From: Dipteris shenzhenensis
Lineage: Eukaryota
Direction: 5' to 3' (one strand)
DNA length: 64,000 nt
Assembly (NCBI GenBank): GCA_047967505.1
Contig: CM106538.1
Positions 30,201 through 59,638 of the stretch are shown one piece after another. Made by a program: the position numbers and the translations under genes. Each line of letters starts with the position of its first letter. The first letter of the stretch is position 1. The notes beneath the pieces were generated by a model. The model was not told where the DNA came from and made no database searches. It saw nothing but the letters and a program-made list of their open reading frames with translations.

Positions 30201-31420
30201 CAAAGACTTTCTATATCAATCCTGGGTTTGGTGAGCACACTCTAGCAGGTATTTTCTCCAGCAAGGGGAGGATCGGTACATGTACCCTATTCGATTTGCT
30301 TCTCAACAATTGCTTGAAACTGAATGACGCTACTCTGAGGCTCACAAGCATGTCTCATCTTTGGTGTTCTGCATTGAGGTATTTAAGCATTATGTGGCTG
30401 GAAAGTCCTTCATTATAATTTATAGCAATGATCTCGCAAAGCAGGTTCTTCACTCACCAAATCCCATGGAACACTTATTTCATTAATTTTGGACTCATAT
30501 GTCTACATTTGGACTAATCCTTGAAATCCTTCCCAAATGAAAAGTTTACTTTATGAAAATATCATTTCATAATCAAAAGTTTACTTTCTAGCACTGTCAT
30601 TTCCACTTAATACATTTCAGGACATCTCTCTATAATGTTGCACTAACAATGCAAAAACTACTATTAAATCCTAATTTTGTATTTCTTGTTTTTAAGAATC
30701 GTATTCTTAAATTAAAGAATTCCTTGAGTTATTATTTTAAATCCATGAAAAACCACGCTCTTGAAGATTTAAAAAATTTTAAAAAGCTATACACAAGAGA
30801 CTTGCAAGACTCTTTTTGCTTTGAATGCAGAAAACTATAGCACTCTTGAATATTCAAGAAATTAAAAGGTTTATATAGACATGAGACATGATGGAAGTCT
30901 TTTTTGTACTCTAAAAAATAGCAATAGCTATGCTTGCAATTTTACATTATCAGAGTCCATTCTTAAATGAATCAGTGGAGTTACTCATATATCGCATGGG
31001 TATTGATCATCACACTTCTAGCATCTATTATCCAACATCCATGGATCAAACAGAGCGGACCAATGGCCTCCTTTGTAAAACATGGAAAAAACGGCTACAA
31101 GGAACAGAAGCGAGTGGGATAAGAAGGTCACAGAAGCCGTATGGACTTACAACATCACTCATAAAATGTCTATAGGTCACACTCCTTTTGAGTTGGTGTA
31201 CGGTACTGAGGCCATTTTACCACTAGAGATAGAGATTCCAGCTTTGAGATTGGCACAAGAATAGAGGATGATAAAAGATGAACATGTAGAGGCCCAGTTG
31301 GTGCAACTTGAGAAGCTAGATGAAACCCGACGCCTTGCCCTACATCAAACAGAGATATAAAAGAATCAACAAAAGGCCCACTTGGATGCTAAGATTCGTA
31401 AGTTTAATATTGAATAGAAA
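27273..31420 (+). mobile_element. Degraded Ty3/Gypsy element, non-chromovirus (Athila/Tat-like): LTR-like region, gag knuckle, protease, RT, RNase H, integrase C-half
   Basis: TATA-like GGCTATAAAAG near 27891; [59 protein letters not shown]-rich interruption at about 30480-30950. Confidence 0.88.
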
Positions 31421-31469: not shown

Positions 31470-31600
31470 AAGGCCTTGAACGCCTCACACTGCTGCAGCA
31501 GGAACATCAAAGAGAGGGAATGGTTTGGGTTATGGCAGCAAGAGACATAGGTAAATGGGCTACCTACAGGGATGGAAAAGTCATTATTAGAGAGAGAGCA
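31470..31600 (+). pseudogene. LINE ORF1 C-terminal remnant
   Basis: LTLLQQEHQREGMVWVMAARDIGKWATYRDGKVIIRER aligns by eye with LTLTQLKQRISELAKVNKARNAQKWAICRDGQALIRDF at 41084-41200. Confidence 0.55.
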
Positions 31601-38939: not shown

Positions 38940-39407
38940 CCTCACAAGCTTTGCAAGTGGAATGGGATGTAAATGATATATCAATGTTAGTCAAAATGGC
39001 ACACAAGCACAAGTCTACTTCAGAGGGAGGATAACAAGAGTTAAGATCCTCAAAATGACACATAAATTGAAGGGTACAAAGATTCGAATAATTGAGGAGC
39101 TCACCTTTATCTAGCTCAAACAAAGAAATAGCGAACGCACCAAAGTCAAGAAAGCATGCAAAGCAAGAAAATGGGTTGTTTATCAAAATGGGCAAGCATT
39201 GATTAAAGACTTTAAATCCAAACCCAAAGACTCTCAGTCTTAGGCCACCTTACAATAGCAGTATTGAAATGTAAATATGCCCTATAATAACTTGGGAGGA
39301 GCTAGCTTTGTGCACTCCCTCAACTCTTTGGTTATCCAGATGTAGTAAGTCAATTTTTCGTTTATACTTTGTCTCATAGACATGTGAGGTCTTCTGTAGA
39401 CATCAAT

Positions 39408-39448
<41 letters not shown>

Positions 39449-39552
39449 GTGTATGTACCTAGGTTGCACATTTCAAAGGACCCTGATTCAACATGAAACT
39501 AGTAGCTCAAGCTAGGCAGCTTGAGCTATCCAAAGGACATGTTGCGTTGGCA
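38940..39552 (+). mobile_element. RTE-type LINE fragment: ORF1 C-terminus, tail-like motif with (TC)n, start of ORF2-like sequence
   Basis: Direct homolog of 40190-40283 plus 41074-41570. Confidence 0.65.
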
Positions 39553-39602
39553 TCTCTCTCTCTCTCTCTCTCTCCCTCTCCCCCCCCCCTCTCTCTCTCT
39601 CT

Positions 39603-39633
<31 letters not shown>

Positions 39634-39659
39634 CCCCCCCCTCTCTCGACCTCTATCTC

Positions 39660-41412
39660 AACCTCAACTAGCAAGATCTCTTACTTGACTGTTGTAGCTT
39701 TTCCCCTGACTCCTAGCACAAAGACATACCACCCAATGAAGACCATCTCAAATCTATAGAAGCACATCTATTACCTAGAGCCTGAAGTTCAAGAGCTCAA
39801 CAAGCTTCGGCTTGCAACTCTGGAAGGAGGGTAATGGAAAGCAAGAAGTCATCCATGAGGCAATACAAAAATGTAATGCATCTCCACCGACAATGCAATT
39901 GGTTTCTAAAGTGCAAGACACGATCACCAATCAAGTGAAATCAATGAAGCAAGAGATGATTGTTGCTGATGTGAAGAGCAAAGTGAACAAAGTTGATCTT
40001 TACAAGGAAGTGAAAGAACAAGAATCTAGGGTGAAATAATAGAATGATCTTACATGTTAGGGGTTTGAAGGATGGATGCCTTCATGATGATGAAGAGAAA
40101 GACCTAGATGATATAATCATATGCCTTAAGAAGGAAATATGCAAGCTGAATGGGACGAGAACAATATAAGCAATATCTATCAAACTGGCACTCAAGCACA
40201 AGTCTATTTTAGAGGGAGGGCATCAAGCGTTAAGATCCTTAGACAAACACATAAGTTGAAGGAGGGCACAAGGATTTGGATACTGTTACAAAAATTGTAA
40301 TCAAACATGCTCACAAATTCAAGATTTACTGAAACCATAGGAACCAAGAACAAGGAAACAAGTGGGGAAGAGAAGAGAAAGAGAGAGCGACACTGCATGG
40401 GGTCCAATCTGCCCCCCCTAGATGGTGGCTCTTGCTTCCCATCTAGAGTATTTATAATTGTAATTCCAAAAAGCAAAGAACTAATAATAGTACATCCAAA
40501 AGCATCCCTTGTCCACAATTAGAGGGATTGCTCAACATAACTCCATGAGCTTAAAATATCACAAGGCTTAATATGCCCTCATCGATAATTTATAAAATAA
40601 ATTAGCGCACGGCTTAAAATTCATTACTTTATAATACGGGCCATGGACTTTGACAACCATTAGATATTTCGATCAATCCAAATCACCTTCACCTTCTCTG
40701 TTCCTCGTTATCCAACTCATCATTTGTACTCAAGCTGCCAATTGTGTTAGTTGTTACAATCAATTGATGAATCATCACACCAACTAATCCCAACACAATT
40801 GCATGCTTGATATACAAACATCAAAATACACACCTTGCGATCAATTATGCAATAACACCAGTAACACTAGCGACATTAGTATTAACATGGAATCACCCAC
40901 ATCTAGCCTGGCAAATCATAGGTAGTTAGGCATCCCAACTAAACCCCACAAAGCATCCACTAGGACCCCCGCTGCGTCTGGTGCACTCCTATGGAATACT
41001 TTGCCATAGTCACACTTGACTAAAATAAAATAATTTCCATAGCAAGAAATATCAAAAATACAATTCTGTAACAATATATGAGAAGCTCACACTGACCCAG
41101 CTCAAACAAAGAATTAGTGAGCTCGCCAAAGTAAACAAAGCACGCAATGCACAAAAATGGGCAATTTGTCGAGATGGTCAAGCACTGATTAGGGATTTCA
41201 AATCTAAACCCAAAGACTGTCAAACTTAAACTAATGTTCAAAAGGCCACCTTTTATAATAGTACTAGAATGTAGTTATGCCCTTTAATAATTCAGGAGGA
41301 GTAGAGATTTGTGCACTCCCCTGATCTTCTCTGGTTTTCTAGATGTAGTCAATCAATTTTTGAAGGTTGTCCTTTGTCTCATAGACCCATCAGGTCTTAT
41401 GCAAATGTTGAT

Positions 41413-41473
<61 letters not shown>

Positions 41474-42250
41474 TCTCTCTCTCTCGCATGCATATGTGTA
41501 CATAGGACCCCGATTCAACATGAAACTAGGAGCTCAAGCTAGGCTATGCAAAGGACATGTGGCACTAGCAAGATTGGAGGGAGTTTTCAGGCGGCACACT
41601 TGAGCATGTACACAAGAAATCCCTCCTTTGGACTCGCTAGTTAGACCAACAGCTTTATGACGCTCTCCCACATGATCCATGAGAAAAGGTGCACACCACA
41701 TGACATCATACTAGTTGAATTTGCATCCCATGCAATAAAGACCTCTGGTTCCAAATTATCACATATCCAAACAGGGTCAAGGCATGCTTGGCTTCGAGAA
41801 ACTACAGGTCATGATGCTCTCTCGCATGATCCGTGAGAAGAAGTGCACACCACGACATCATATTGGCTGAGTTCACAACCCATCCCATGCATACAAACCT
41901 CGCATTCTAGATCATAGACAAGCTCCAAACACATGATAGGACTGAGGCCAATAGACGGCGAATACCAGGGAGAGCCATCTCATCCTCTATGCAACTAGCA
42001 TCCAGTGGAGATACTAGTTGGTGGTATTCACAAGCCACCACACACAAGGCATGCCCATTGATCATCACCCTACATATCAGTAACCCTTGGATGCACCTGC
42101 TCTATGGTTGACATGACACGAGATCCATTGGGTTATCGTCCTATGGAGGGTTTACATTCAACAAACATGCGTCTCTCGACGCAGCCTCACACCAGTAAGA
42201 CGGCCTTCTACAAAGATCATTTTCTCCATCTCTAATTTTGGCTGCCTCAT
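39660..42250 (+). mobile_element. Degraded RTE-type LINE 5' part (ORF1, spacer with (TC)n, endonuclease remnant), interrupted by a solo LTR
   Basis: Coiled-coil-like ORF 39812-40039 followed by LHVRGL; IWIYEKLT restored across the solo LTR; DIILVE near 41700 resembles an endonuclease motif. Confidence 0.6.
40284..41073 (-). mobile_element. Solo LTR, 790 bp
   Basis: Termini TGTTACA and TGTAACA (7-bp inverted repeat); 4-bp TSD ATAC/ATAT; removal restores colinearity with the uninterrupted copy at 39080-39105; TATAAATA on the minus strand near 40450. Confidence 0.82.
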
Positions 42251-42317
42251 TTTGAGGTCGCTACTCTTGTAATATAATCAATCAAAATTTTTCACTAAAA
42301 AAAAGTGTGTGCGTGCG

Positions 42318-42318
42318 C

Positions 42319-42353
<35 letters not shown>

Positions 42354-43935
42354 ATTAATGTTCGCGGAAGACCTTGCATGCCTATGGGACAAAGTGCAAA
42401 ATACACCAAAAGGAAAAATAACTCATACAAGCCACAAAGGGTTGGAGCAAAGGGCGTGCTAAGACCCTTGTTGAAGTACAAAACATATCAAGTCGGCTAA
42501 GACCTGGAGCTGGAACTCAGAATCTGAAACGCGCCACTCTGGTGACTCGTCTATAAGGGGTGAAAACATCTCGGATTTGTGTCTGTCAAGTTGTCTCATG
42601 ATGTGATGGTGGAGGGAGACGTGGTCTCCTCGATCTCTGAACCTGTTGAGCTATGTTTAGAGTGACCCCTACTATTGGGCGGTCTCCTCTGAGGAAAGTT
42701 GTGCTAGGTTGGACCTCAATAGAGGATACTCTGGTCGCTCTGTGTCGCAAGTGGCCTCTGCAACCCCCTCAGTATTCCAAACTGCCCACATATCGGCTAG
42801 CTCCTCCTCCTCGTCCATCCCATTGTGTCTTGGACTTGACTAAAAAACATAGAAATTTGTGACTCACCGTTGTGTCTGGTCAACCTCTATAGCTTGTGGT
42901 TTGATCGCCTCCTGTCCCCTCTCTGATCTCGTAGCAGTCCCATCTTGATAGAGACAATGGTATCGCCCCCAGATCTCGTAGCAGGTTGCGCACGCGCAGA
43001 GAAAGTGCTCCTCTGTCTCAATCACTCCCAGTGTGCATAGCATGTCGATCCGCTCCTCTCTAGGTATACGTGCTGCTCTCATTGTCTCAATCCTTAGCTA
43101 ATGGAAAGAAACTTGCATCTGCTCAATAGCGATTCTCAGTGCATGTGAGACTCCTCTGTCCTCGAGATACTGGGTCTGATGACAAATCCCTCCTCTGAGA
43201 CGCTCAGGAAGTGGTTGTGGTAGAACCGAGTCTTGGTGGGGAGTTCCTGATCTCCCCCCCAAGTTCGAGACGTGTGGAGCTAGAGGAGATCTAACTGTAT
43301 GGTACGGTTCATCTCATCTCGCAGGATCGACTCAGGGGTGCATCCATGCTATACTGAAAGGAAGGGAGCCTGTCCATTTGAATCCTGTGTCTAGCAAACC
43401 ATGTGGATATATGTGCATACGATGTGTCCGCAATGCTCTCGCTAGTCTTCTAGATGTGACTCCATGGCCAGCCTCGGTACCATAGTCACATGTAGCCGCT
43501 CAAATCTCCTCTCTGCTATCGATAGGTCACAACCCTAGAAGCATGCTGCATACATGGTAGTCGATAGCACTAGCGTATCGAAGAGCCAGTGGATCCTGAA
43601 AGTGTGCCTGGAAGCAGTGACTCTCCAATCGTGCCAGAGCACCTCGTCCCTGTGTGGGTCGTGAATGGGTTGCATGTGTCATAGTGAAAAGGTCCTATGA
43701 AGATTGCTCCCAAATATGTGTAGGACTGCACTATCTCCACTAGCTCGTCTCGATAGGTAAAGCTGAGTCCACGAAGCACTGCATGTGAGGTGTTGAAGAC
43801 CATAACCTCGGTGTTCCCAAGGTTGGCTATCAAGTCTCTCTCTCTGTAGTAAACCTCCAAGGCCTTCAAATGTCTTTGCAACCCCTCCGCTGAGGATGAG
43901 ATAAGGACTATGTCATCAACATATAGCAATATCTA
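42318..43935 (-). mobile_element. 5'-truncated RTE-type LINE (RT C-half, Cys/His finger, 3' UTR, (TC)n tail)
   Basis: LYVDDIVLISSSAEGLQRHL, YTYLG, ETEEHFLCAC..YEIWGRYHCL; homologous to 49720-50950 and 48045-48785. Confidence 0.9.
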
Positions 43936-44099
43936 TATCATGAGAGAGAGAGAGAGAGAAGTTTATTGACTATTGCAAATGACAAAGTGGGCTATGAGAC
44001 TAGATTTTAAATATTTAGTGGAATACATCTCGGGTAGGGGAGTTGTCTCCTAAAGTGCAAATGATATAAATGAAACAATCAAAGTATTAGAGAATACAC

Positions 44100-44850
44100 T
44101 CGTATCTTGCCCGGCTTACTATAGGATTTGGTAGGCTTTGAGATCTCCGAAATATGTTTGAAATTTACAAGTATCGCGCCTTGATTTGCCAGTGGTCTCA
44201 CACATGGGAATGGCGTGCTTGGTGAGGTCTTAATTGAAGTCGTTTTGCCTTTGCAACATGTATTCGATTTGTATTTGATGTCCTCTTCCTTACCCTATAG
44301 GTTTGACTCACAGACGTTGTGAGTTGTCCCATCTCTGTGTGAGGCTAAAGTAGGATGTCCTAAATAAGATGTCCACTCATTGTACCAATAGATATCATCA
44401 TGCATGCCTGGCGTGTAGGAGCTCGATATCCCATGTTCTATGATGGGTGCTAAGCGGGGTCATCTCTAGTGAAGTAAAAATGGGATTTGTTGCTTCTGCC
44501 TCTGTGCATTGGATGCATGAGTGTCTCGGAGTCATGTGACCTCTCATCGCAAGTAGAGCAACACATCTGTGATTTGAATAGTCAATGACCAGTCACATGT
44601 CATAAAACCCATGCTCATAGAGGCAGTGGAATCTTCTAGTAGTGAGGGCATCTCATGAGCATATGCTCCGCGATCTCAAGGTCTTACAAGTCACATAGGG
44701 TGCATAGTCTCAACTCATGGTGGCGTTATGTGGTTCGATCTCTCATCTAGTCTTAACGTGGACCTTTTGAGATGATTGGCCCATGTCTATCTGCAAGTAG
44801 ACCCGTGTGTTGAAAATCTTAGTGTATGCTAAATATACATCATGATCTAT
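44100..44850 (-). pseudogene. Heavily eroded LINE ORF2 C-terminal remnant
   Basis: Weak by-eye similarity to the SHRLRIE / EH..F.CP / I.GRY region of the other RTE-type copies. Confidence 0.3.
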
Positions 44851-47861: not shown

Positions 47862-48044
47862 CTACAACCCACCCCAAAAAAGAGAGGTGTATAGGCATAT
47901 GTGGAAATATAATACTCTCTCTCTCTCTCTCTCTCATGAATATAAGCTTTTTTTCTTCTAGTAACGATAAAACCAACAATAACATGGGTTCCTCCAGGAG
48001 ATTGTCAATGACAAGGATGAAAAGTTTATGGGTTGCTTTGACAG

Positions 48045-48747
48045 GACTCAGACTCTACTATGATAGATCAGAGAGCAGCAGGAGGCGATCAGGCCACAAG
48101 ACAGACAGGCTGACAGAGCTCAGTGTCACGTCACAAACTTCTATGCATTTGAATCAGCTCCAGGACACATCGGGATGGAGGTGGAGGAGATAGTTGACAT
48201 GCGGGCAGCCTGGATTACTGAGAGAGATGCAGAGACCACCTGCAGCACGGAGAGCACACTCTATTGAGGTCCGTCCTATCACAGCTTTCCTCAAAGGAGA
48301 CCGCTCGAGGCGAGGGGTTACTTTGAACAAGCCCAACGGGTTCAGAGATCAAGAAGAGCACGTCCCCCTCCACCACCACAGCATGACACAGCCCGACAGA
48401 CGCAGATCCGAGACATTTTCACCGCTCACAGGCGAGCCACCATGGTGCTGGGCTTTGGCTTCTGAACCTGAGTCTCGGATCTCAGCATGCTACAGCTCAC
48501 AGATACTTGCTAGTCTCCGGGTTAGATCTGATTTTGGAGCTATTGAGCTCTGTAGAATTATCAGGTTCTCAGGTTATCAATCTATCAGCTTATCATTTTA
48601 TCAGTTTAACAGTTTAGTAGTCTTACACCAAGCAAGGGCCTTAGTGCGCCCTTTGCTCCAGCCCACTAAGACTTGTATGAGATCATCCTTTTGGTGTACT
48701 TTGTACCTTGTCCCATAGGCTTGTGAGGTCTTCCGCAGACGTTAATA

Positions 48748-48785
<38 letters not shown>
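48045..48785 (+). mobile_element. RTE-type LINE 3' end with (TC)n tail, intronic
   Basis: Reverse-complement homolog of 42318-42945. Confidence 0.85.
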
Positions 48786-48792
<7 letters not shown>

Positions 48793-48829
48793 GCGTGCGT
48801 ATGTGTGTGTGTGTGTGTGTAGACACTCA

Positions 48830-48985
48830 GAATGCAGGTCAACATGGTTAAAACAAACGTCATGGTCATTGGAACTCGCAATAAACAAGTTGATGTCACT
48901 TTCGAAGATGAGCCTTTGGACACAATCAACTCATATAAATATTTAGGGCTGGAATTTACTGACAACTACAAGTGGAATGCATATT
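48830..48985 (+). pseudogene. LINE RT fragment
   Basis: MQVNMVKTNVMV...SYKYLGLEF. Confidence 0.75.
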
Positions 48986-49419
48986 TAAACTTACTAGAGA
49001 TGTGGGTGATCTTGAGACCACTAAAGATTATGCCTTACATTTGGTTCTAGTGATGTGCCATGGACAAGTAAGAAGCAGCCCACGAATTTGTTATCTTCTA
49101 ATGATGCAAAAAACAAGGCCTAATATTTGGAGTTAGTAAAGCAATATATATGTTAACAAATATGCAGCATGAGCATGCATAATACAAAAGTAGAAGAAGT
49201 ACATGAGTTACAGGAGGAGGAAATCAATCTTCAGTAGGAGAGGCTATAAGTCACACTTGGCATAGGGAAAACTTCTAATTTCTTCCTCCATTAATCCAAT
49301 GTACCTGCTGACAATGGTCTCTATAACAACTTCCTGTTTTTGGAGATCACAAATTTCAAAGCTTTTTTACTTCCCTTATGGAACCATTATTCCCCCCTTG
49401 ATCTTCATAACGTGATGGC

Positions 49420-51013
49420 TCTATGTGGATTTCCGCAAAGCCTTTGACACAATACCTCGAGCTCGACTCATCACACGCCTACAGGCACTAGGATTCGACC
49501 AGGAGATCATCTGGGCAATCATGGCACTTTATGAGAGTGTCTCAGGCAGAGTTCGGACAGGCGCAGGTTGGACAAATGAGACCTTGAGCACCATAGGGGT
49601 CAAACAGGGTTGTCCCTTATCACCAACCCTGTTTAGCCTCTACATCGATGAGCTTGAGACTTTCATGGGGGCTTCCGGAGGGACCAATTGCTCGCTTGCC
49701 GGGATCATCATCAAGATTCTTCTTTATGCAGATGACGTGGCACTCTTATCATCCACACCCGAGGGGCTCCAGCGACACCTGGACGCACTGCAGGCTTTTT
49801 GTTTATCCCATGATTTGGAGGTCAACCTTGGCAAGACCAAGGTCATGATCTTTAACACCTCTCAAGCAAACATGCACCGGAAGCAGTTCACTTTCGGTGG
49901 GTCACCAGTTGAGATCGTATCCTCATACACTTACTTGGGGGTCATCTTCTCCGGCCTGACCTTCACGATGAGACCAGCCATGCAAGCCAGACTGAGCAGG
50001 GGATATGCCTCACTGGCTCAGCTAGAGAGACAGTGCTTCCACTCCCACTTCCAGGACCCTCGGACCAAGGCTCTCCTCTTCGACTCCTTGGTCCGACTAG
50101 CCGGTATGTATGCCAGCTCTTGTTGGGGACCTAACATGTCAAATATAGAGTAGACACAGGTGGAGCGCCTGCAGATCCTTATGCTCTCATGGATGATCCG
50201 GGGGAACCCATCTGTACCACATCATATCATTCGGGCCGAGTTTGGTGCTTCTCCACTCCAGCTAGATGCAGCCTTTCAAACCATCACATATCTACACCGG
50301 GTTAGATCATATGGGGACTGCACATCAGGGAGACAGAGGTTGCCATGGTTGGCTCTCAGTTCCTCCAAGAGGTTGGCAGCAGAGGGAGATGAGCGAGGCT
50401 GGTATGCACAGACTCACAGATGGTTTGTGAGACTGGGGTTTCACATCGATAGGATACCTCCTTTTCAATACAGTTTGGATGCCCCTCCGGTACTCCTACC
50501 CACCATCCCGATCGGGCTACACACCAACCAGGTCATTCGAGAGGATCTCATGCAGCTATACACCTTTAGAACCTAGTTGGAGCCGAGGGAGCTTCCAGTG
50601 AAGCTGAGCTTCTACACACTCACTTCAGAAGAATTTGCAAAGATATCTTCATTCCACTGTTATCCTGCAACCATATGTATATTCAAGCACACTGTCTTCG
50701 TATTTCGGAGGAGGGATTCATCACGCCACTGGGGTACACTAAGCTTCACATGCCTCACTCACTATGGATCTCCATCGGACAATTTCGGGTATCATCACAC
50801 CGCCTCCGCATAGAGAGCGACAGAGCAGAGGGGATCCCAAGGGAGCATCGCATATGCACATTATGCGACTGTCAGGAGGTTGAGTCGGAGGAGCATTTTA
50901 TTTTCAGGTGCCCAATGTACTACGAGATCCGAGGTCGCTACCACTGTCTCTTCAGAGACGGCTTCGGGCTCCTTTCCAGATTCCTCGCTTACCCAGATCA
51001 GAGATGCCTAGCG
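49420..51013 (+). mobile_element. 5'-truncated RTE-type LINE ORF2 (RT and Cys/His finger), interrupted by the chromovirus
   Basis: DFRKAFD, GVKQGCPLSPTLF, LLYADD, YTYLG, CTLCD...EEHFIFRCP; in-frame stops at 50151 and 50574. Confidence 0.92.
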
Positions 51014-51387
51014 GCATCTAGGAGGCGGTCCGTGTGACCGAGAGCTTTGAAGACTCCAGAATGGCCCTTAGTGGCTTGTAATAGGATTTAGTCTAGATTT
51101 TAGACAAGTGGCATGTTGCCAATTTGAATGGAGCTTGAAGCTCTTGTAAAAGAAGGGATTTTTCACATTTTGTAATAGGGATTTTACGAGATAGCTCTAT
51201 GCTGAACTTCTGTAACAGATTTTCTGGAATGAATAAAGACCTTCGGGGGGGTCCAGCCCGACGATTTGTCCTGGGCCCTAGTGCATCTTGAGAGAGAGGG
51301 AGTGAGGAAGAGTTTTTTTTTTTAGAGCTTAAATCCCGTTGTAGAAAGAGTGGTGATAGCTGTCTTTCACCTTCAGTCTGGTTTTAT
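51014..51387 (+). repeat. 5' LTR remnant (3' 40 percent only)
   Basis: Matches 58117-58490. Confidence 0.92.
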
Positions 51388-51399
51388 TGGTATCAGAGC
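51388..51399 (+). promoter_or_regulatory. Primer-binding site, tRNA-iMet type
   Basis: TGGTATCAGAGC directly after the LTR. Confidence 0.92.
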
Positions 51400-52130
51400 A
51401 AGGTTTGCTTTTTTTTTTTCCTTCAAAGAAGCACGGTTCAAGATTGCAAGGGGGGGGGGGGGGGGGGGGTTGTGTACCCAATAGCCCGTGAAGGTCCCAG
51501 TGCGTGGAGAATTTGGTGCACGACTAAAAGATCATCTTGGTCGCACATTTTCATTCCTGCACATCGTGAATGTTGATGCCGAAAAAGTGAAGCGATCGTT
51601 TGTGGAGGAAGATTTGTTGATGACGGTGATCTCGATGGAAGGCCAAGTGCATTTTGAGAAGTACTGGGCGCATATGGAGGGGACAATTGACTGTCATACC
51701 CTTCCGCTAGCGACTAGATACACCTAGTCTTTACAAGCAAGGAAGCTTGTGGACACGCAAACGGCGTTGTCCACCTGAACTAGACACGGCGAAGAAGAAG
51801 TGTATACGCGAATAGGAACAGACGGAGATTCGTTGGGTTGGCGACGCTGAGTGCTCCCACCAGACGTGAATGTCAATTTCGCTGGCTCAATATTCCGTCA
51901 CGCTTCCCGTGTGGTGACGACGCCTTCAAGCGTAGCGACTTCTTCACGGAGGCGCAGGCTCCTTGTCTAACAGAGTTGCGGACGGAGATAATAAACGCGA
52001 GCTAAAATCCTTCCATGGCTGTTTTTGCGACGCTTCATGGAAGGAGATGCGTCGGTGAAACAGGGGCGTAACGCGCGATGCGTGATGATCGACAGAATTC
52101 CGTCGCCTGCACCCCCGTCTTTGACCTTAG

Positions 52131-52268
52131 CAGCTGACGTGGCAGATCTAACACGTGGCAGACAGCTCAGCAGCTGACGTGGCAGATCTAACACGTGGCA
52201 GACAACTCAGCAGCTGACGTGGCAGTACACGTGGCAGACAGCGCAATTGCTGACGTGGCATGCACGTG
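52131..52268 (+). repeat. 40-bp tandem repeat with seven ACGTGGC (G-box/ABRE-type) cores in the element leader
   Basis: CAGCTGACGTGGCAGATCTAACACGTGGCAGACA(G/A)CTCAG twice plus degenerate units. Confidence 0.85.
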
Positions 52269-52894
52269 TGAGATGACCTGGCATTCTGACAGGTGACATG
52301 GATGCTGACATGGATAACCAGGGGTTCATTTAATTAAGCTTGGTAGTGGACTGGCTAGAGGTCCAGTTAGTTGACCCAACCAGACCAGTCAGGTCACACT
52401 GCAACCAGACTGTGACCAGTCCAGTTGGCCCAGTTGCAAACTAACCAGACCAGAACCAATCAGTCTGGTTAGAGTAACTAGCCAGTTACTCTATCTGGTT
52501 ACTGTTCCTTTTCCCAAAAAAAAAAAAAAAAAACAACAGTTGCAGAGATTGTTTCTGCTAGTGATTTTCATCTGTTTGTCAGACTTTCTACTGTCAGAAA
52601 ACAGCAGAAAAACAGAGGAATCAGAGATTTGCAGAAAAAGAGTATGCATGCCTTTGAGCAGTAAAAAGAGGGAAAAACAGATGCCTTTTGAAGCCATCTG
52701 CAGCAGCCAGAAAAGGGCAATATAGTTGTTGATGCTTTGGCCACTGTGTGGGTATATGCCTTGAACTGACAGCCAGTACTGGCATAGAGTGTAAATGCAA
52801 AACACCTCTTGTTGAGGTACTTTTTCTGTTGAAAAAGCAAAAGTAGAGTGCATCAGTTACCCGCACTGTGTGAGAAACCTGCAGATCTCAGAAT

Positions 52895-54256
52895 ATGGAT
52901 CAATCACCTATCCAGTGGGATTCACAAGATAGGGATGTACATCCAGGACAGAGAAATGTGCCGCAAACTCAACAAGAATTTGAACAGATGGTATGCACTC
53001 GTATACAAGAGCTGGAAAATCTCAAAAGGGATCCCAGGGCTCAGTATTTGTTTCCAGCAGAAGCTATGCATAATCCAGTGTATGACGTGCCAATGCCAGA
53101 GGCACACTCTCGTGTACAGTCTGAGAAAGAGAGATCTCATAGATCTCATAGGAGACGGTCCCATAGTAAAAAGAGATCGAGGCATCATCACCGATCTCCT
53201 AGTCCATCACCGTCTACCTCGAGTTCGACTTCTGTGTCTTCTTCTTCCTTATCAGATAAACCATCCAGGAAAAGAAGGAAACACGAGAAGTCTAGGAAGA
53301 GAAAGTCTTCCAAAGCGACCAGGGAATTTAAAGAGGGAGGAAAATCTGTCAAGTTTATGACCTACAATGGACAGTATGGTCATACAGACAAAGCATTGCA
53401 GTTTATCAGACAGTTTGATGCTGCATTCGGTACAGAAAAATTTTCAGAATCCTCCAAATTAAGAATGGTCAGTTTACACTTGACAGCAACGGCTAGTGCA
53501 TGGTGGAGTGCACTGACCACAGATGGGTCAGCCCCAAGGAAGTGGAAGGGCTTCAAGAAAGCCTTCTACCAGCAGTTCATGCCTAAACAGTTTAGAGACC
53601 ATGTTCTTCAAGATTGGGACAGCTTGCACATGGATGCAGGAGATACAGTGGATGGCTACAACCAAAAGTTCTGGGATGCTTATTTGCAGGTTGCACCGTT
53701 CAAAAAGATCTCCAAAGGCACCCAGATGAGGAAGTACAGAGCAGGTCTCACTCCAAGAATTCAGGCAGTAGTGAATGCTTTGGGGGCAAAGAATATTCAA
53801 GATCTTATGCATTCAGCTTCAGTAGCGAGTCTTGTGCCGCTACAAGATCCATCTACAGTGCCATCCCTGCATGAAGGACGTGTTGATAAAAAGAAAACTG
53901 ACTTTACAAAATCAGAAAAGAAAGAGTACCCCAAGGCTGAAAAGAAAGGGTTTCAGCCTCAGAAGCCGAGGGGTACTCAGTTTTCAAAGACTTATAAGGG
54001 CAAATCTCTATTCACCCCTGAACAGATAGCGGAATTCCGTAGAGATGGGAAATGCTTCAGGTGCGGTAAAGAGGGGCATGTGGCTGCCCAATGCCCAGAA
54101 AAGCCTTCAACATCGAAGGGAAAAGAGGCAGAGAAGCCACGAGGACCGCAAAAGCCAATGGCGGGGGGTATTCCTGATATACTGGGTCATGCTTTGAACC
54201 CAGAAGAACGAGAGTGCTGCTATCATGGGGCAAAGTTAGAGACCAGCAAGCGCTAA
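52895..54256 (+). CDS. gag: Gag (capsid-like domain and CCHC zinc knuckle)
   Basis: 453 aa [14 protein letters not shown]...[24 protein letters not shown]. Confidence 0.92.
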
Positions 54257-57200
54257 TTTTATTTGATCCAGGGGCTACTGATAATTTTATATCAGAGGAT
54301 CTAGCCCTGACGCTGGGAATAAAGACGGAAGAGTTCGGCAGGGCTTTGGATGCCGATCAAATGTTTTGTGGGAATCCTGTGCCAGTTACTACCTTGATAG
54401 GGAAGCTCCGTCTTCATGTTCAGAGTTATGTGGACCAGGAAGACTTTTTCATTTCTCCACTGAAACATTATGATGTAGTTTTGGGGATGCCTTGGTTTCA
54501 CCGCAAGGCAGTGAAGTTGACTCTTCCTGAAAGAGTGCTGGAGTTTGTGCATAGGGGGAAAAATCAGCGTTTAATTGCCAGAAATAAAGGGGACACTATC
54601 CCCATTGTATCTGATGTTTCATGCGGTAAAGCAATAAAGTCTGCAATTTCTGCGTACATGGTTTTTGTAAAAGAAAAAGAGAATGATATGCATGCTGAAA
54701 TGAATGATGCAGACAAAGATAAGTTTCAGTTTCTGGTAAACTTTAAAGATTGTTTTTCTGACGTTTTGCCAGGGGAGTTACCCCCAGAGAGACCTGAAGA
54801 TCATCAGATAGAGTTAATGCCTGGTAGTGAGCCACCAAATAGACCCCCTTATAGAGTCAGTGCGACTCAGAGAGAGGAGATTATGGCTCAGGTACAGGAC
54901 TTGCTGTCCAAAGGGTTGATTCATCCCAGCTCGTCTCCTTTTTGTTCCCCTGTACTATTAGTACAGAAGAAAGATGGTTCATTCCGTATGTGCATCGATT
55001 ATCGCGCACTGAACAAAATGACCATCAAGAATAGATTCCCTATTCCGCGTATTGATGATGTACTCAATCAGTTAAACGGAGCTTCAGTTTTCAGCAGGAT
55101 AGACTTGAAGAGTGGCTATCACCAAGTGAGGATACAACCTCAGGATGTACACAAGACAGCATTCCGCACTACATTCGGGTTGTATGAATACTTAGTGATG
55201 CCTTTTGGGTTGACAAATGCTCCAGCCACATTCAATAGAATGATGGATCGTATCTTCCGGAAGTACAGGCATTTTACGGGTACTTTCTTTGATGATATCT
55301 TAGTTTTTTCTAAGACAGAGCAAGACCACAGAGAGCATCTTGCTATAGTGTTTCAAGAGCTGAGAAATCATCAGCTCTATGCAAACAGCAAGAAAAGTGA
55401 ATTCTTCCTGGAAGAAATCCACTATCTGGGGCATATAATATCCAAGAATGGGATACAAATGGATCCAGCAAAGATCCGTGCCATTCAGGAATGGCCAGAG
55501 CTGAAAACTGTGCATGAAGTTCGAAGCTTTTTAGGCTTGTGTTCTTACTACAGAAGGTTTATCAGACATTTTGCTGATATCGCAGCTCCATTACATGACC
55601 TCACTAAGAAAAATGCAGCCTTCACATGGGGATTATCACAAAAGAAAGCATTCAATACACTCAAGGAAAAGTTGACTACAGAGCCTATTCTGGTAGTTCC
55701 GGATCTTTATCAGTCTTTTGATGTGGATTGCGATGCTTGTGGAGAATGTGTTAGGGCTGCATTGCATCAGAATGGTCATGTAGTAGCCTATGAAAGCAGG
55801 CGACTTCGGGATGCGGAAAGATATTTAGGAATCTATGAGAAAGAGTTATTGGCTGTAATTCATGCCATCCATACATGGAAACACTATCTTTTGGGTGCAG
55901 ATTTTACTGTCAAAACAGATCACCAAAGTCTGAAATACTTTTTGACTCAGACCAAGCTTTCAGAGAAGCATATGAAATGGGCAAACATGCTGTCAATGTA
56001 TCATTTTCAGATTGTCCATACTCCAGGAATTCGGAACAGAGTGGCAGATGCCTTGTCCCGAAGACCCCAGGTCAATAATGTAACTATTGCTTATCATCAA
56101 GACCTGGAAAGTATGAGGGAGCAATATGCTCATGATTCTGATTTTGGTGAAATTTTACAGCAAATGCAAGAAGGGCAATCCACCAGTCACTATTCCCTGA
56201 AAGATAGGTATTTAATGAAAGATGATTGCCTATGCATCACCCAGGAGATGAGGAAAAAGATTTTGGGGGAATGCCATGCACCTCCCTATGCTGGACATAG
56301 AGGAATTACAGCAACAACTCTAGCCCTAGAAAGGTATTTCTTTTGGCCAGGAATGCGGAAAGATACACATCAGTTTGTTACTGAATGCCTTACGTGTCAG
56401 AAAATAAAGTACGATAGACGGAAGGCACCTGGCCTACTTATGCCTCTTCCCGTGCCTCAGGCACCATGGGAAAGCATTACAATGGATTTTATTTTTGATT
56501 TGCCGAGATCAAAGTCAGGGAATGATGGGATTTGGACTATCATTGATAGATTCAGCAAGCAAGCTCATTTCCTTCCGGTTCGCAAAACCATAAAGGCAGA
56601 TCATATGGCTAAGCTGTTCATGGCACAGATCTTTAAACATCATGGTATGCCTAAGTCCATTGTTAGTGATCGAGATCCCAGAATGACCAGTCTATTCTGG
56701 AGAGCTTTATTTGATAACATGGGGACGAATCTGAATTTTTCTTCTTCTTTCCATCCCCAGACAGATGGTCAAAGTGAAGTAGCAAATTCTACCATTTTGG
56801 ATATGCTGAAATGCTACGTGGGTGACCAAAGTTCAGACTGGGAAAAGTACCTACCGTTAGTAGAGTTTGCTTACAATAATACAGTACATAGCTCTACAGG
56901 GAAAGCCCCTTTTGAAATCATATATGGGAAAGTGATTTTGCCACCTATATTAAGGACCAAAGATGAAATATTTGCAGCTGATCAGTTTGTAAGAGACCTC
57001 CAGACAGCTTACAACCAAGTCCGGACAGCAATTGAAAGGTCTCAAGAGAAACATAAAAGAGCTGCAGATAAACATAGGAGACAGCTAGATCTCAAGGAAG
57101 GGGACTGGGTACTTTTGAGGTTTGAAAAAGCTAGGCTCCGCAAGTTTAAAGGCAAACAGAAAGTGTATGCAAAGTTATCTCCCAGATACTATGGCCCTTT

Positions 57201-57558
57201 CAGGGTTACAGAAAGAATAAATGAGGTTGCATACAGATTAGCATTGCCAGAGCATTGGAGGATTCACAATGCATTCCATGTGAGTCTTCTAAAGAAATTC
57301 CAGGGACCAGAGCCTACAGAACCAGTATCAGAAGATCCACCAGAAGTGGATGAGCTGGAGGAAGTCCTTCAGCCAGAGCAAATTGTGTACCATATTGTAC
57401 GTAAAGGCCCTCAGGGTAAGGAATTTTACAGGTATCTTGTAAAATTCAAGAATTATACGGCATTAGATGCCAAGTGGATGGACGAAGACATGTTATCCGA
57501 TCATCCACAGCTTTTGGATGTTTACAAGGAAGCTTTTCAGTTGAGGTCAACTGAATAG
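54214..57558 (+). CDS. pol: Pol (protease, RT, RNase H, integrase, chromodomain), in the -1 frame relative to gag
   Basis: 1114 codons uninterrupted; [44 protein letters not shown]...[23 protein letters not shown]...KW. Confidence 0.95.
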
Positions 57559-57570
57559 AAGCCGAGGGGA

Positions 57571-58494
57571 TGTCACCACAATGTAAATATCCTAAGTCAA
57601 AGTACAGTTGACCATTTATTTGATCATAATTAAAGAGTTTTATATGTGTTAATTACGGTCAAAGAGTTATTTTAATGATCAAAGGATTGACTACGGTCAA
57701 AGATACTTGACTCCAGTCAAGTAAACCTGACTGCGGTCAGAGAGTGTTGACTTCGGTCAACAAGACTTGGCATGCGCCAAGAGGGTTAACCCTGATTAAC
57801 CAAGATGTGCCAACTTTGGTTGGAGAGACTTGGCTATAATTAAGGCGCCTTGACCTTTGGTCAAAGCTCTTTAATTATAATCAAGAGTGTTGACTCCGGT
57901 CAACCAGAGAATATATATATGTTTATTTGTATATATATTTGTTTAGATGTGCACATGTGTTCAGTGGGGACGCCCACCGTGACTAGGATTAGTCCACAGT
58001 GTGTTATTTGCATGCAAAGCGCTAACAATTAATGGGTACCATGGTGGTGCGCTTTAATTAATTGTTGCAGGTACTAGGAAGGATTATTTTTCCTAAGCGA
58101 AATGGGAGCCTGACAAGCATCTAGGAGGCGGTCCGTGTGACCGAGAGCTTTGAAGACTCCAGAATGGCCCTTAGTGGCTTGTAATAGGATTTAGTCTAGA
58201 TTTTAGACAAGTGGCATGTTGCCAATTTAAATGGAGCTTGAAGCTCTTGTAAAAGAAGGGATTTTTCACGTTTTGTAATAGGGATTTTACGAGATAGCTC
58301 TATGCTGAACTTCTGTAACAGATTTTCTGTAATGAATAAAGACCTTCGGGGGGGTCCAGCCCGACGATTTGTCCTGAACCCTAGTGCATCTTGAGAGAGA
58401 GGGAGTGAGGAAGAGTTTTTTTTTTGAGAGCTTAAATCCCGTTGTAGAAAGAGTGGTGATAGCTGTCTTTCACCTTCAGTCTGGTTATATGACA
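57571..58494 (+). repeat. Complete 3' LTR, 924 bp
   Basis: Inverted termini TGTCA and TGACA; preceded by purine-rich AGAAGCCGAGGGGA right after the pol stop. Confidence 0.88.
57649..57903 (+). repeat. About 20-nt-period array of 5-bp-stem hairpins (TTGAC-N4-GTCAA type) in U3
   Basis: Perfect units at 57687, 57707, 57727, 57747, 57767, 57810, 57850 and 57890, with degenerate units in between. Confidence 0.85.
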
Positions 58495-58706
58495 TGCGGA
58501 GGATTCCACTCTCGCTCCAGTCTTTTTTCTTTTCATTGTCACACCCAGATGTATTTGATTATGTATGATTAGACTTAGGACTCAGCACGGGTGATGATGC
58601 TCGTTTAGTAGCTCCACCCTTACTGTGATTTGTATCAGGTTTTCTTTCAGTCTCATAGACCCATCGGTCCTCCGAAGACTCTAATAAAATTTCTTTCTTT
58701 CTTTCT
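58495..58706 (+). mobile_element. 3' end of the interrupted RTE-type LINE, with (TTTC)n tail
   Basis: Family tail motif GTCTCATAGACCCATCGGTCCTCCGAAGACTCTAATAA at 58650. Confidence 0.7.

Positions 58707-59601: not shown

Positions 59602-59638
<37 letters not shown>

What the first reader, a model, noticed from the sequence alone, without database searches (positions are those of the whole stretch)
38940..41570. A LINE 3'-end signal with (TC)n tail also sits between ORF1 and ORF2
One motif of about 40 nt, GTCYCATAGRC-N6/7-GGTCYTCYG..RAC.TYAATA followed by a pyrimidine microsatellite, ends three ORF2-bearing LINE copies (42390 minus, 48710, 58650). It also occurs twice directly after an ORF1 C-terminus (39371, 41376). 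In both cases homology continues about 100 bp past the (TC)n into an ATG (39493, 41520), and the second runs on into endonuclease-like sequence. The motif can form small alternative hairpins (AGAC/GTCT). Hypothesis: a two-module LINE whose ORF1 and ORF2 parts each carry an RT-recognition end, allowing ORF1-only RNAs to retrotranspose and seeding (TC)n microsatellites.
Basis: partly seen in the sequence, partly recalled or inferred. Interest (0 to 1): 0.7.

Follow-up and report, generated by a model that had tools for sequence, protein, structure and literature searches.

The report
ORF1-only LINE parasites stacked head-to-tail
The repeated 40-base signal is the genuine 3' end of a fern-type LINE retrotransposon family, and where it seems to sit "between ORF1 and ORF2" it really ends short ORF1-only parasite elements that have a decapitated LINE copy stacked directly behind their (TC)n tail.

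Summary
The motif is real. GTCYCATAGRC occurs exactly 5 times against 0.15 expected. A sixth copy lies at 44000(-). The same 3' end closes related LINEs from other records (L003, L004, L005).

The two occurrences after ORF1 are also real. The ORF1 there is an L1-ORF1p-like protein.

The sequence after the (TC)n is not an ORF2 start or an endonuclease. It matches ORF2 from about residue 747 onward, which is where the RT domain ends. That makes it a 5'-truncated LINE copy.

Tail-then-truncated-LINE junctions recur in the window: G->F, H->C0 and C0->C'.

In full-length relatives (L003-L007, L010) ORF1 runs straight into ORF2. There is no sense motif and no (TC)n between them.

An independent record, L001, shows a short-type ORF1 followed by the LINE tail. 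In an ORF1 tree, all 3 tail-followed ORF1s fall in one deep clade and all 4 ORF2-followed ORF1s fall in the other.

Best reading: these are HAL1/HeT-A-like ORF1-only non-autonomous elements that share the partner LINE's 3' signal, and copies pile up at (TC)n tracts.

The two-module LINE idea is not supported. The ideas of ORF1-only mobilisation and of a link between the motif and (TC)n tracts survive.

The parts
38952..39444 (+). Copy A, a 5'-truncated ORF1-only element. It holds the ORF1 C-terminal part (38980-39243, in-frame TAG at 39112-39114), a spacer (39244-39370), the 3' motif (39371-39410) and (TC)17 (39411-39444).
   Evidence: P0122 residues 112-196 match 38986-39240 (52% identity, E 2e-21). 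No ORF1 homology lies upstream of about 38950.
39445..39545 (+). E', a 100-nt fragment derived from ORF2. It starts at the YxYLG end of the RT domain. It duplicates the first ~80-100 nt of E.
   Evidence: It is 71 of 78 ungapped positions (91%) identical to 41486-41563, with 23 gap columns.
39553..39650 (+). Compound (TC)n(C)n microsatellite between E' and the 5' end of copy B.
39655..41485 (+). Copy B, a decayed ORF1-only element. It holds a 5' region, ORF1 (39827-40282 and 41056-41229, with stops and frameshifts), a spacer (41230-41375), the 3' motif (41376-41415) and (TC)35 (41416-41485).
   Evidence: P0123 residues 62-207 match 39827-40282, and residues 201-265 match 41056-41244.
40283..41072 (.). 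A ~790-bp insertion that splits the ORF1 of copy B. It has terminal inverted repeats of 14-17 nt and looks like a MITE-type DNA transposon.
   Evidence: (pair I4, arms 40280-40293 and 41064-41077).
41486..42300 (+). E, a 5'-truncated LINE copy covering ORF2 residues about 747-956 and a little beyond. It carries no EN and no RT domain.
   Evidence: P0002 747-924, P0003 759-914 and P0008 843-956 match 41490-42108 (E 1e-6 to 2e-8). Searches also apply.
42300..43941 (-). F, a 5'-truncated LINE. ORF2 runs from the YVDD motif (residue ~673) to the CCHC region, then the 3' UTR, the motif (42390-42350) and (TC)14 (42348-42321).
43942..44716 (-). G, a LINE 3' fragment. It holds ORF2 residues ~1040-1098 (44716-44551), the motif (44000-43960) and (TC)9 (43959-43942). 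It abuts the 5' end of F directly, head to tail.
47885..47935 (+). H, a decayed, short LINE-tail-like sequence (..GTATAGGCATATGTGG..AATATAATAC) with (TC)10. The first detectable homology of C0 begins 130 nt downstream.
   Evidence: I read this by eye; model R1 did not detect it.
48065..48785 (+). C0, only the 3'-terminal ~690 nt of a LINE. It holds the motif (48710-48749) and (TC)18 (48750-48785).
   Evidence: it matches F sense positions 1017-1625 at 75-82% identity. Searches also apply.
48823..49050 (+). C', a 5'-truncated LINE fragment that starts at the VNxxKTxVM motif of the RT. It lies 37 nt behind the tail of C0.
   Evidence: and 94 (BLASTP against copy D, E 3e-8).
49416..51013 (+). D, a LINE ORF2 piece running from the RT to the CCHC region.
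   Evidence: RVT_1, E 2e-24. (P0003 residues 583-1096, 55-57% identity).
51014..58490 (+). A Ty3/gypsy chromovirus-type LTR retrotransposon. LTRs are at 51014-51387 and 58117-58490 (98% identical). Gag is at 52874-54256 and pol at 54178-57558. It is not a LINE ORF2.
58491..58705 (+). A LINE 3' end with the motif (58650-58689) and (TTTC)4 (58690-58705). It is probably the remainder of D behind the gypsy insertion.
   Evidence: Continuity with D is inferred.
31478..31597 (+). A fragment of a long-type ORF1 C-terminus, the type that precedes ORF2 in full-length relatives. An ORF2-start-like stretch (IWNC) lies near 31853. There is no (TC)n and no sense motif between the two.
   Evidence: 55-62% identity to long-type ORF1s, E 2e-8. 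Searches also apply.

Best explanation
The ~40-50-nt motif is the 3'-terminal module of an L1-like LINE lineage. That lineage has ORF2 built as APE endonuclease + RT + C-terminal Cys/His motif, an ORF1p of the L1 coiled-coil/RRM/CTD type, and pyrimidine microsatellite tails, (TC)n or (TTTC)n.

The same module also ends a separate lineage of roughly 1.2-kb non-autonomous elements. These encode only a short-type ORF1p (about 230-265 aa) and no ORF2. Copies A and B are two decayed members of that lineage.

Such elements would be reverse-transcribed by the partner LINE's ORF2 protein, which recognises the shared 3' end. This step is inferred and was not shown.

New copies of the family land in or next to (TC)n tracts, including the tails of resident copies. 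Copies therefore accumulate head to tail. The ORF2-like sequence behind the tails of A and B is such a neighbour: a 5'-truncated LINE (E) that begins where the RT domain ends. It is not the ORF2 of the same element.

The E'/E duplication is younger than the A/B divergence. It could be a long target duplication made when B inserted, or a local repair duplication. This step is also inferred.
For: 1. Motif conservation.
- 5 exact hits against 0.15 expected.
- The same 3' end occurs in L004 and L005.
- L003 was not used to build model R1, yet R1 finds the motif there at E 1.2e-9.

2. The frame is an ORF1.
- It has 23 relatives.
- The relatives lie just upstream of EN-RT ORF2 in L003-L007.
- A predicted structure of the close relative P0122 has human L1 ORF1p as its top 9 Foldseek PDB matches, E 5e-5 to 3e-4.

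3. The downstream sequence is ORF2 residues ~747-956. EN is residues 2-236 and RT is 502-759.

4. The same kind of junction recurs with ordinary LINE 3' ends upstream: G->F, C0->C' and H->C0. Of the 6 independent tails (A/B counted once, F, G, H, C0, D), 4 are followed by a truncated LINE in the same orientation.

5. In 6 of 6 related elements with a visible junction, ORF1 is followed by ORF2 within ~10-60 nt and there is no tail.

6. L001, from another record, has ORF1 (68-796), then ~200 nt (797-999), then GTCCCATGGGCCGACGTTAATACAC(TTTC)5. L002 shows no ORF2 start in the 57 nt visible after its ORF1.

7. The ORF1 tree (36 rows, quick search) has a split with SH-aLRT 100 and branch length 2.29.
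- All 3 tail-followed ORF1s (A, B, L001) fall in the short-type clade of 25 rows, in different subclades.
- All 4 ORF2-followed ORF1s fall in the long-type clade of 11 rows.

8. A and B are 358 of 462 positions (77.5%) identical. E' and E are 71 of 78 (91%) identical, binomial P = 0.0015. This fits two separate ORF1-only insertions plus a younger duplication.

9. 5' junctions at (TC)n, out of 11 that could be placed.
- Clear, 7: B, E, F, C', L003, L004, L006.
- Ambiguous, 3: C0, L005, L002.
- Absent, 1: A.

Against: - No full-length copy of the window's own family and no whole genome were available. An internal tail in that particular family is therefore excluded only indirectly.
- Only 3 short-type ORF1 loci have visible downstream sequence, or 4 if L002's 57 nt are counted. 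A and B share the same downstream junction and lie 2 kb apart, so they may not be independent.
- If gap columns are counted, E'/E similarity falls to 71 of 101 (70%), no higher than A/B.
- Copy A has no (TC)n at its 5' end.
- No target-site duplications could be identified for any copy.
- The contig-length contrast is not significant. Short-type ORF1s are on contigs over 2.1 kb in 0 of 14 cases. Long-type ORF1s are on contigs over 3 kb in 4 of 18 cases. Fisher P = 0.11.
- Trans-mobilisation and (TC)n targeting are inferences from anatomy.
- The tree was a quick search, and the two window rows are short fragments (24-31% of columns filled, long branches).
Confidence: 0.6

Rival explanations
1. 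One-off composite that was later duplicated locally. On this view a single full-length LINE with a short-type ORF1 was hit just after ORF1 by a very short 5'-truncated LINE copy (only ~170 nt of 3' end plus tail). That insertion came with a ~2.3-kb target deletion that removed ORF2 up to residue ~747. The resulting ORF1-tail-ORF2(delta) block was then copied nearby, giving A/E' and B/E.
For: - A/E' and B/E share the same (TC)n|GCATG.. junction, have the same orientation and lie 2 kb apart.
- Only these two ORF1 copies of this type are in the window.
- E follows in the sense orientation, as the element's own ORF2 remnant would.
- L008/L009 show that internally ORF2-deleted copies of a long-type LINE do occur.
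Against: - L001 shows ORF1+tail independently in another record.
- The tree dichotomy of 3 of 3 against 4 of 4 argues against it.
- E'/E are 91% identical against 77.5% for A/B at ungapped positions (P = 0.0015). A single block duplication would predict equal divergence.
- A is not in tandem with B. It lies upstream of B's own 5' part and is separated from it by a (TC)n(C)n tract.
Confidence: 0.15
2. Chimeric insertions made in single events. On this view the head-to-tail blocks are not successive insertions into tails. The reverse transcriptase copies one LINE RNA part of the way, then jumps to the 3' motif and tail of another RNA (a LINE or an ORF1-only RNA) and continues. Each array would then be one integration. 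This rival concerns only how the arrays form. It keeps the ORF1-only element.
For: - In every junction the upstream unit is a 3'-complete piece and the downstream unit is 5'-truncated. This holds in 4 of 4 independent junctions.
- The 5' ends of full-length relatives carry (TC)n of variable length, 2.5 to 21 repeats. In L005 that is a piece of another copy's tail, as partial jumps would leave.
- End-to-end template jumping is known for the R2 reverse transcriptase. I recall this and did not check it here.
Against: - E' is an internal ORF2 piece with (TC)n on both sides and no motif in front of the second tract. A jump to an RNA 3' end cannot produce that.
- Units within an array differ in decay: C0 against F is 75-82% identical and A against B is 77%. 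Without family consensus sequences, ages cannot be compared.
Confidence: 0.15
3. It proposes one bicistronic LINE whose ORF1 module and ORF2 module each end in the RT-recognition motif plus (TC)n, so that the motif lies in the inter-ORF spacer.
For: - The motif follows ORF1 twice, and ORF2-like sequence follows in the same orientation.
- Short-type ORF1 relatives sit on 0.9-2.1-kb contigs (14 of 14). That is also what assembly breaks at an internal (TC)n would give.
- In full-length relatives the ORF2 start region carries the reverse complement of the motif core. A motif-related sequence therefore does sit between the ORFs, but in antisense.
Against: - The downstream sequence begins at ORF2 residue ~747. 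EN and RT are both absent.
- 6 of 6 related junctions lack a sense motif and a (TC)n.
- The same tail-then-truncated-ORF2 arrangement occurs behind plain LINE 3' UTRs (G->F, C0->C').
- ORF2 relatives lie on 4.5-5.6-kb contigs, which leave 0.8-1.9 kb beyond ORF2. That is hard to reconcile with an assembly break just upstream of ORF2.
Confidence: 0.05

Closest known systems
HAL1 (half-L1) of mammals
   Same: It is a non-autonomous LINE derivative that encodes only ORF1p and depends on a partner LINE. [quoted passage not shown] ORF1p here is of the L1 type.
   Different: - HAL1 is a mammalian L1 derivative with a poly(A) tail and arose repeatedly.
- Here the host is fern-like.
- Here the tail is a specific ~40-nt motif plus (TC)n.
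- Here the ORF1-only ORF1s form one deep, diversified clade separate from the ORF1 of full-length elements.
- I could not read Bao & Jurka 2010. The paper is not held, and I saw it only as a reference.
HeT-A and other ORF1-only telomeric Jockey-clade elements of Drosophila
   Same: These are ORF1-only elements that rely on the ORF2 of related elements and occur in head-to-tail arrays. ORF1-only lineages can persist and give rise to new ORF1-only lineages (PMC13534243, passages read).
   Different: - They belong to the Jockey clade, with a gag-like ORF1 carrying MHR and CCHC motifs.
- They are attached to chromosome ends.
- Here the setting is interstitial, the ORF1p is L1-type, and the arrays are joined through (TC)n tracts.
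Kibi and Koshi (TC- and TTC-microsatellite-targeting APE-type LINEs of fish)
   Same: Copies are flanked by (TC)n, and new copies sit in (TC)n tracts. [quoted passage not shown] TTC ... by two Koshi elements'.
   Different: - Targeting is only inferred here: 7 clear cases out of 11 placed 5' junctions.
- In the L003-L006 family the 5' flank is (TC)n but the 3' tail is (TTTC)n.
- No phylogenetic placement against Kibi or the Tx1 group was possible, because no reference sequences were at hand.
- The host is a plant lineage.
LINE/SINE pairs that share a 3' tail (stringent-type recognition, for example eel UnaL2/UnaSINE1; recalled)
   Same: A non-autonomous element carries the last ~50 nt of its partner LINE. 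Homology between A/B and the LINE copies is essentially limited to the motif and its tail (F sense positions 1546-1632 match 39361-39447 at 83%).
   Different: - The passenger here is a protein-coding ORF1, not a Pol III-derived head.
- A conserved stem-loop, which defines the UnaL2 type, is not supported here.

Membership tests
L1-like LINE (autonomous partner) | APE-type endonuclease at the N-terminus of ORF2 | tested here: inconclusive
   The feature is present in relatives: PF03372 in P0003 (E 1e-6) and in the L005 ORF2 (E 8e-7). All ORF2 copies in the window are 5'-truncated and lack this region.
L1-like LINE (autonomous partner) | Reverse transcriptase domain | tested here: met
   PF00078 in 49416-50153 at E 2e-24, above the curated cut-off. 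In 43570-43932 it scores E 1.6e-5 at 25.1 bits, below the cut-off of 29.6.
L1-like LINE (autonomous partner) | ORF1p with coiled coil, RRM and C-terminal domain | tested here: met
   - The AlphaFold2 model of P0122 has mean pLDDT 64, with the core at 70-85.
- Its Foldseek PDB ranks 1-9 are the human LINE-1 ORF1p trimer (2yko, 2ykp, 2ykq), E 5e-5 to 3e-4, TM 0.34-0.40.
- Pfam gives no family.
L1-like LINE (autonomous partner) | Poly(A) tail, and phylogenetic placement of the RT in the L1 clade | tested here: not met
   The tails are (TC)n or (TTTC)n, never poly(A). Placement of the RT in a clade was not tested, because no reference set was available. I therefore file it only as 'L1-like'.
ORF1-only non-autonomous LINE derivative (HAL1-like kind) | Encodes ORF1 and no ORF2 | tested here: met
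   - Copy A: the ORF1 stop is followed by 127 nt and then the motif.
- Copy B: the ORF1 stop is followed by 146 nt and then the motif.
- L001: the ORF1 stop is followed by ~200 nt and then the motif.

- L002 has no ORF2 start in the 57 nt visible.
ORF1-only non-autonomous LINE derivative (HAL1-like kind) | Shares the 3' end of a co-resident autonomous LINE | tested here: met
   The motif of copy A matches copy C0 over 39361-39444 against 48700-48783 at 88%, and copy F at 83-84%. ORF2-bearing copies with the same end lie in the same window.
ORF1-only non-autonomous LINE derivative (HAL1-like kind) | Many dispersed copies, each with its own flanks or target duplications | not testable with these tools
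   No genome is held and no sequencing run was listed. The only indirect sign is that 14 of 14 short-type ORF1 relatives sit on separate 0.9-2.1-kb contigs.
(TC)n-targeting LINE (Kibi-like) | Insertions flanked on both sides by the target microsatellite | tested here: inconclusive
   - 5' side: 7 clear, 3 ambiguous and 1 absent, out of 11 placed junctions.
- 3' side: always a pyrimidine repeat, but (TTTC)n in L001, L003, L004, L005 and at 58650.
- No empty sites were available.
(TC)n-targeting LINE (Kibi-like) | Membership of the Tx1/Kibi lineage by RT phylogeny | not tested
   No Kibi or Tx1 reference sequence was available from any tool.
Stringent-type LINE 3' stem-loop (UnaL2-like) | Conserved 3' hairpin supported by covariation | tested here: not met
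   - RNAalifold predicts 3 pairs at -0.29 kcal/mol.
- Single-sequence folds give z-scores from +0.40 to -2.16 across six copies.
- Three candidate 4-bp hairpins were tested. Between 290 and 500 of 500 shuffles reach the observed covariation.
- Only 8 sequences were available, so absence of a structure is not shown.

The most novel reading that the evidence does not exclude
Ferns and their allies may carry an old, diversified lineage of ORF1-only LINE parasites. This lineage would have its own ORF1 clade and would co-evolve with a partner LINE through a shared 3' signal.

That signal is the reverse complement of the partner's ORF2 start region: ATGGCCTATGAGACC against GGTCT(C/T)ATAGGCCAT. Long-range pairing between the ORF2 start codon and the 3' end could couple ORF2 translation to RT binding. 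It could also predispose the RNA to lose ORF2, which would spawn the ORF1-only lineage.
Probability: 0.12. Interest if true: 0.7.

Novelty: new variant of a known kind. Interest (0 to 1): 0.45.

Why it matters
ORF1-only LINE derivatives are so far textbook cases from mammals (HAL1) and from Drosophila telomeres (HeT-A). A plant-side lineage that keeps an intact L1-type ORF1p, shares a defined ~40-nt 3' signal with its partner LINE and builds arrays at (TC)n tracts would be a convenient system for three questions:
- What does ORF1p contribute in trans?
- How do stringent 3'-end recognition and microsatellite tails work together?
- How do LINEs create and then re-use microsatellites in very large fern genomes?

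For annotation, it is a warning. In such nests, the order 'ORF1 - tail - ORF2 fragment' does not define one element.

Tried and rejected
DEAD ENDS IN DATA ACCESS
- No whole genome is held for the window.
- No sequencing run was listed. This says nothing about expression.
- Earlier scan notes returned nothing.

DATABASE SEARCHES THAT GAVE NOTHING USEFUL
- Pfam gives no family for any ORF1 piece or relative.
- The PDB sequence profile search gave only coiled-coil noise. L1 ORF1p 6fia scored E 0.5.
- The ESM Atlas gave only unnamed clusters.
- Rfam has no family in 38000-60000.

MOTIF STRUCTURE
- Hairpins in the motif get no support.

IDEAS I DROPPED
- At first I thought all the truncated ORF2 copies start at one shared point. 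Alignment showed three different points: F at ~673, C' at ~705 and E at ~747 in P0002 numbering.
- I considered that the short purine-pyrimidine runs after the (TC)n belong to the tail. In A and B that run is at least partly the ORF2 'SYTYLG' codons. A (TC)n(C)n(CA)n tract without any motif also exists at 59535-59640. I left this open.
- I asked whether E and C0 are one element split by the F/G insertions. This is unresolved, because about 60-130 codons are unaccounted for and tail H lies in between.

CHECKS THAT FAILED OR WERE WEAK
- I found no target duplication for the gypsy element, so the link from D to 58650 stays an inference.
- The contig-length contrast between ORF1 types is not significant (P = 0.11).
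- The first attempt at a related-loci search with alignment A3 failed for lack of conserved columns. It worked with A4.

LITERATURE
- Searches for fern LINEs or for ORF1-only elements in plants listed nothing relevant. Searches were read as listings only. These two searches are the only basis for saying I found no prior description.


Full report
WHAT THE WINDOW IS

The window is eukaryotic. No genome is held for it. The closest named relatives of its LINE reverse transcriptase are hypothetical proteins of the ferns Adiantum and Ceratopteris. The region from 38.9 to 59 kb is a nest of LINE fragments plus one Ty3/gypsy element.

THE MOTIF

The 11-mer GTCYCATAGRC occurs exactly at the five stated places. 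That is 5 hits against 0.15 expected, and 0 of 100 shuffles reach 5.

Each occurrence continues as ..N6..GGTCYTC..GAC.TTAATA.A.C and then a pyrimidine microsatellite.

A sixth copy lies on the minus strand at 44000-43960 with a (TC)9 tail. A decayed seventh lies near 47885-47935 with (TC)10. I read the seventh by eye.

The motif is not a local curiosity. It also closes related LINE copies from other records:
- L005: GTCTTATAGGCCATTTTGGTCTCTTACAAGACGTTAATATATC(TTTC)4.
- L004: the same kind of 3' end.
- L003: found by the sequence model R1, which was built without it, at E 1.2e-9.

Their ORF2s are about 44-47% identical to the fern-type ORF2 P0003.

The conservation is at the sequence level. RNAalifold keeps 3 pairs at -0.29 kcal/mol. 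Single-sequence folds are not clearly better than shuffles, with z-scores from +0.40 to -2.16 across six copies. None of three candidate 4-bp hairpins shows covariation. With 8 sequences this does not exclude a structure.

ORF1

The frames ending at 39243 and 41229 are homologous to each other and have 23 relatives in the large protein library. Most relatives are about 200-270 aa, with a coiled coil, a GGLP..W segment and a conserved C-terminus, LKGTKIWI.EELT..QLK...GKWAVYR.

Pfam finds nothing in them. A model of the close relative P0122 has the human LINE-1 ORF1p trimer as its first nine PDB matches. More distant members lie immediately upstream of EN-RT ORF2 in L003-L007.

The motif follows the ORF1 stop after 127 nt in copy A and 146 nt in copy B.

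WHAT FOLLOWS THE (TC)n

This is where the reading fails.

tblastn with four full-length ORF2 relatives places 41490-42108 at ORF2 residues about 747-956. In P0003 the endonuclease is residues 2-236 and the RT is residues 502-759. The nucleotide alignment shows that A and B resume at the ..SYTYLG..F.M...AQARL.. stretch.

The piece behind the tail therefore starts where the RT domain ends. The ATG at 39493 and 41520 is an internal Met codon. This is a 5'-truncated LINE copy, which I call E. Its 100-nt duplicate is E'.

THE SAME ARRANGEMENT RECURS

- On the minus strand, the tail of G (motif 44000-43960, (TC)9) is followed within about 12 nt by F. F begins at ILLYVDD, residue ~673.
- The tail of C0 (48710, (TC)18) is followed after 37 nt by C'. 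C' begins at VNxxKTxVM (E 3e-8).
- The decayed tail H is followed by C0.

Counting A/B once, 4 of 6 independent tails have a truncated LINE directly behind them in the same orientation. F and the 58650 copy do not. The three truncation points differ: about 673, 705 and 747.

Of the 8 (TC)>=6 loci in the whole 64-kb window, 6 are directly preceded by the motif.

WHAT FULL-LENGTH RELATIVES LOOK LIKE

A scan of metagenome contigs with an ORF1 alignment gave 10 loci.

In L003, L004, L005, L006, L007 and L010, ORF1 stops and ORF2 begins about 10-60 nt later. In L003-L006 ORF2 starts as ATGGCCTATGAGACC.. = MAYETLRMTIWNCNG. There is no (TC)n and no sense motif in between. L008 and L009 are one decayed locus with internal ORF2 deletions.

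The window itself holds a fragment of this long-type ORF1 at 31478-31597 (E 2e-8). An ORF2-start-like stretch lies ~250 nt downstream, again without a tail in between. This locus is too decayed to carry much weight.

ORF1-ONLY ELEMENTS

L001 is a 1076-bp contig from another record. It has an intact short-type ORF1 (68-796), then ~200 nt (797-999), then GTCCCATGGGCCGACGTTAATACAC(TTTC)5. This is ORF1 plus the LINE tail, independent of the window.

In an ORF1 tree (36 rows, quick IQ-TREE, midpoint root) one branch with SH-aLRT 100 and length 2.29 separates two clades.
- The long-type clade has 11 rows and contains all 4 ORF1s that are followed by ORF2.
- The short-type clade has 25 rows and contains all 3 ORF1s followed by a tail (A, B, L001, in different subclades), plus L002.

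The strong short-type relatives are intact ORFs on contigs of 870-2058 bp, in 14 of 14 cases. Long-type ORF1s reach contigs over 3 kb in 4 of 18 cases. That contrast is only a trend (P = 0.11).

A and B also keep ATGCCCTAT.AATAA. at 41-48 nt after the ORF1 stop. This resembles the ORF2 start of the relatives at 13 of 18 positions. It hints that the lineage arose by loss of ORF2. This is inference from a short match.

A AND B

At ungapped positions A and B are 358 of 462 (77.5%) identical across ORF1, spacer and motif. E' and E are 71 of 78 (91%) identical, binomial P = 0.0015. E'/E also carry 23 gap columns, so the contrast disappears if gaps are counted.

The layout is: A - (TC)17 - E' - (TC)n(C)n - B - (TC)35 - E.

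I read it in three steps. First, an old copy A was present. Second, E was inserted at A's tail. Third, B was inserted about 100 nt into E, with a long duplication of (TC)n+E(1-100). This order is inferred. A one-off composite that was later duplicated remains possible.

5' ENDS AND (TC)n

The full-length relatives L003, L004 and L006 have different upstream flanks, yet each abuts (TC)9-21 at its 5' end. L005 abuts the tail of another copy.

With the window's junctions included, 7 of 11 placed 5' junctions clearly abut (TC)n, 3 are ambiguous and 1 (copy A) does not.

This resembles the TC-microsatellite-targeting Kibi LINEs of fish (PMC3812793, passage). Without empty sites, targeting, template jumping and a 5'-terminal repeat cannot be told apart.

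COMPARISON AND VERDICT

The unit works like HAL1 (PMC5753468, passage) and like the ORF1-only telomeric elements of Drosophila that form head-to-tail arrays (PMC13534243, passages).

It is not a member of either. It has a different host, a specific 3' motif with a (TC)n tail instead of poly(A), an L1-type ORF1p, and its own deep ORF1 clade.

I found no description of such elements in ferns or other plants in two searches (listings only).

The two-module interpretation is not. What remains is a moderately interesting new variant of a known kind.

Noticed in passing
L003 2028-2042, L004 1433-1447, L005 1350-1363, L006 1306-1320, L010 3491-3504, L007 1063-1082 (all minus-strand hits of model R1): - The ORF2 start region of full-length relatives (ATGGCCTATGAGACC, which includes the start codon) is the reverse complement of the core of the 3' motif. 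In L005 that core is GGTCTTATAGGCCAT: 14 of 15 positions match, and the one difference would be a G-U pair.
- In L005 this site is the best duplex partner of the 3' motif anywhere in the element (-32.3 kcal/mol). However, 6 of 100 shuffled tails do as well somewhere in the element.
- This could be long-range pairing, or it could be a coincidence of the conserved Y-E-T codons.
   Followed up: partly
L003 667-704, L004 68-109, L006 82-99, L005 1-33, L002 8-31: The 5' ends of full-length relatives abut (TC)n tracts of variable length with unrelated upstream flanks. In L005 the 5' end abuts the (TTTC)2 tail of another copy. L002 has (TC)12 about 165 nt upstream of ORF1.
   Followed up: partly
window 51014-58490: An apparently intact Ty3/gypsy chromovirus. 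It has 374-bp LTRs that are 98% identical, a gag with CCHC, and an open pol of 1126 codons carrying protease, RT, RNase H, integrase and chromodomain. It is a young insertion into or next to LINE copy D.
   Followed up: partly
window 40283-41072: A ~790-bp insertion in the ORF1 of copy B, with imperfect terminal inverted repeats (CTGTTACAAAAATTGTA / TACAATTCTGTAACA). It looks like a MITE-type DNA transposon.
   Followed up: partly
L008 840-1770 (same locus as L009 477-1400): A decayed long-type LINE copy in which only ~800 nt separate the ORF1 end from the 3' motif and (TTTC)n tail. It is an internally ORF2-deleted copy.
   Followed up: partly
window 48786-48822, 42304-42320(-), 59535-59640(-): - Short alternating purine-pyrimidine runs, (CGTG)n(TG)n and (AC/GC)n, directly follow two of the (TC)n tails.
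- A (TC)15(C)n(CA/CG)n compound tract at 59535-59640 has no recognisable LINE motif in front of it.
   Followed up: no
window 10770-11413 and 13960-14356: Long, imperfect G-rich arrays of the (GGGAGG)n kind with higher-order periods of 49-185 nt.
   Followed up: no
window 6732-7127(-), 14921-15600(+), 17776-18165(-): Further RT fragments that are more distant, at 27-33% identity to the fern-type ORF2. They are probably other retroelement families.
   Followed up: no
window 31000-31400: Just upstream of the long-type ORF1 fragment lies a decayed stretch whose translation looks like an integrase C-terminal region. I read this by eye and did not test it.
   Followed up: no
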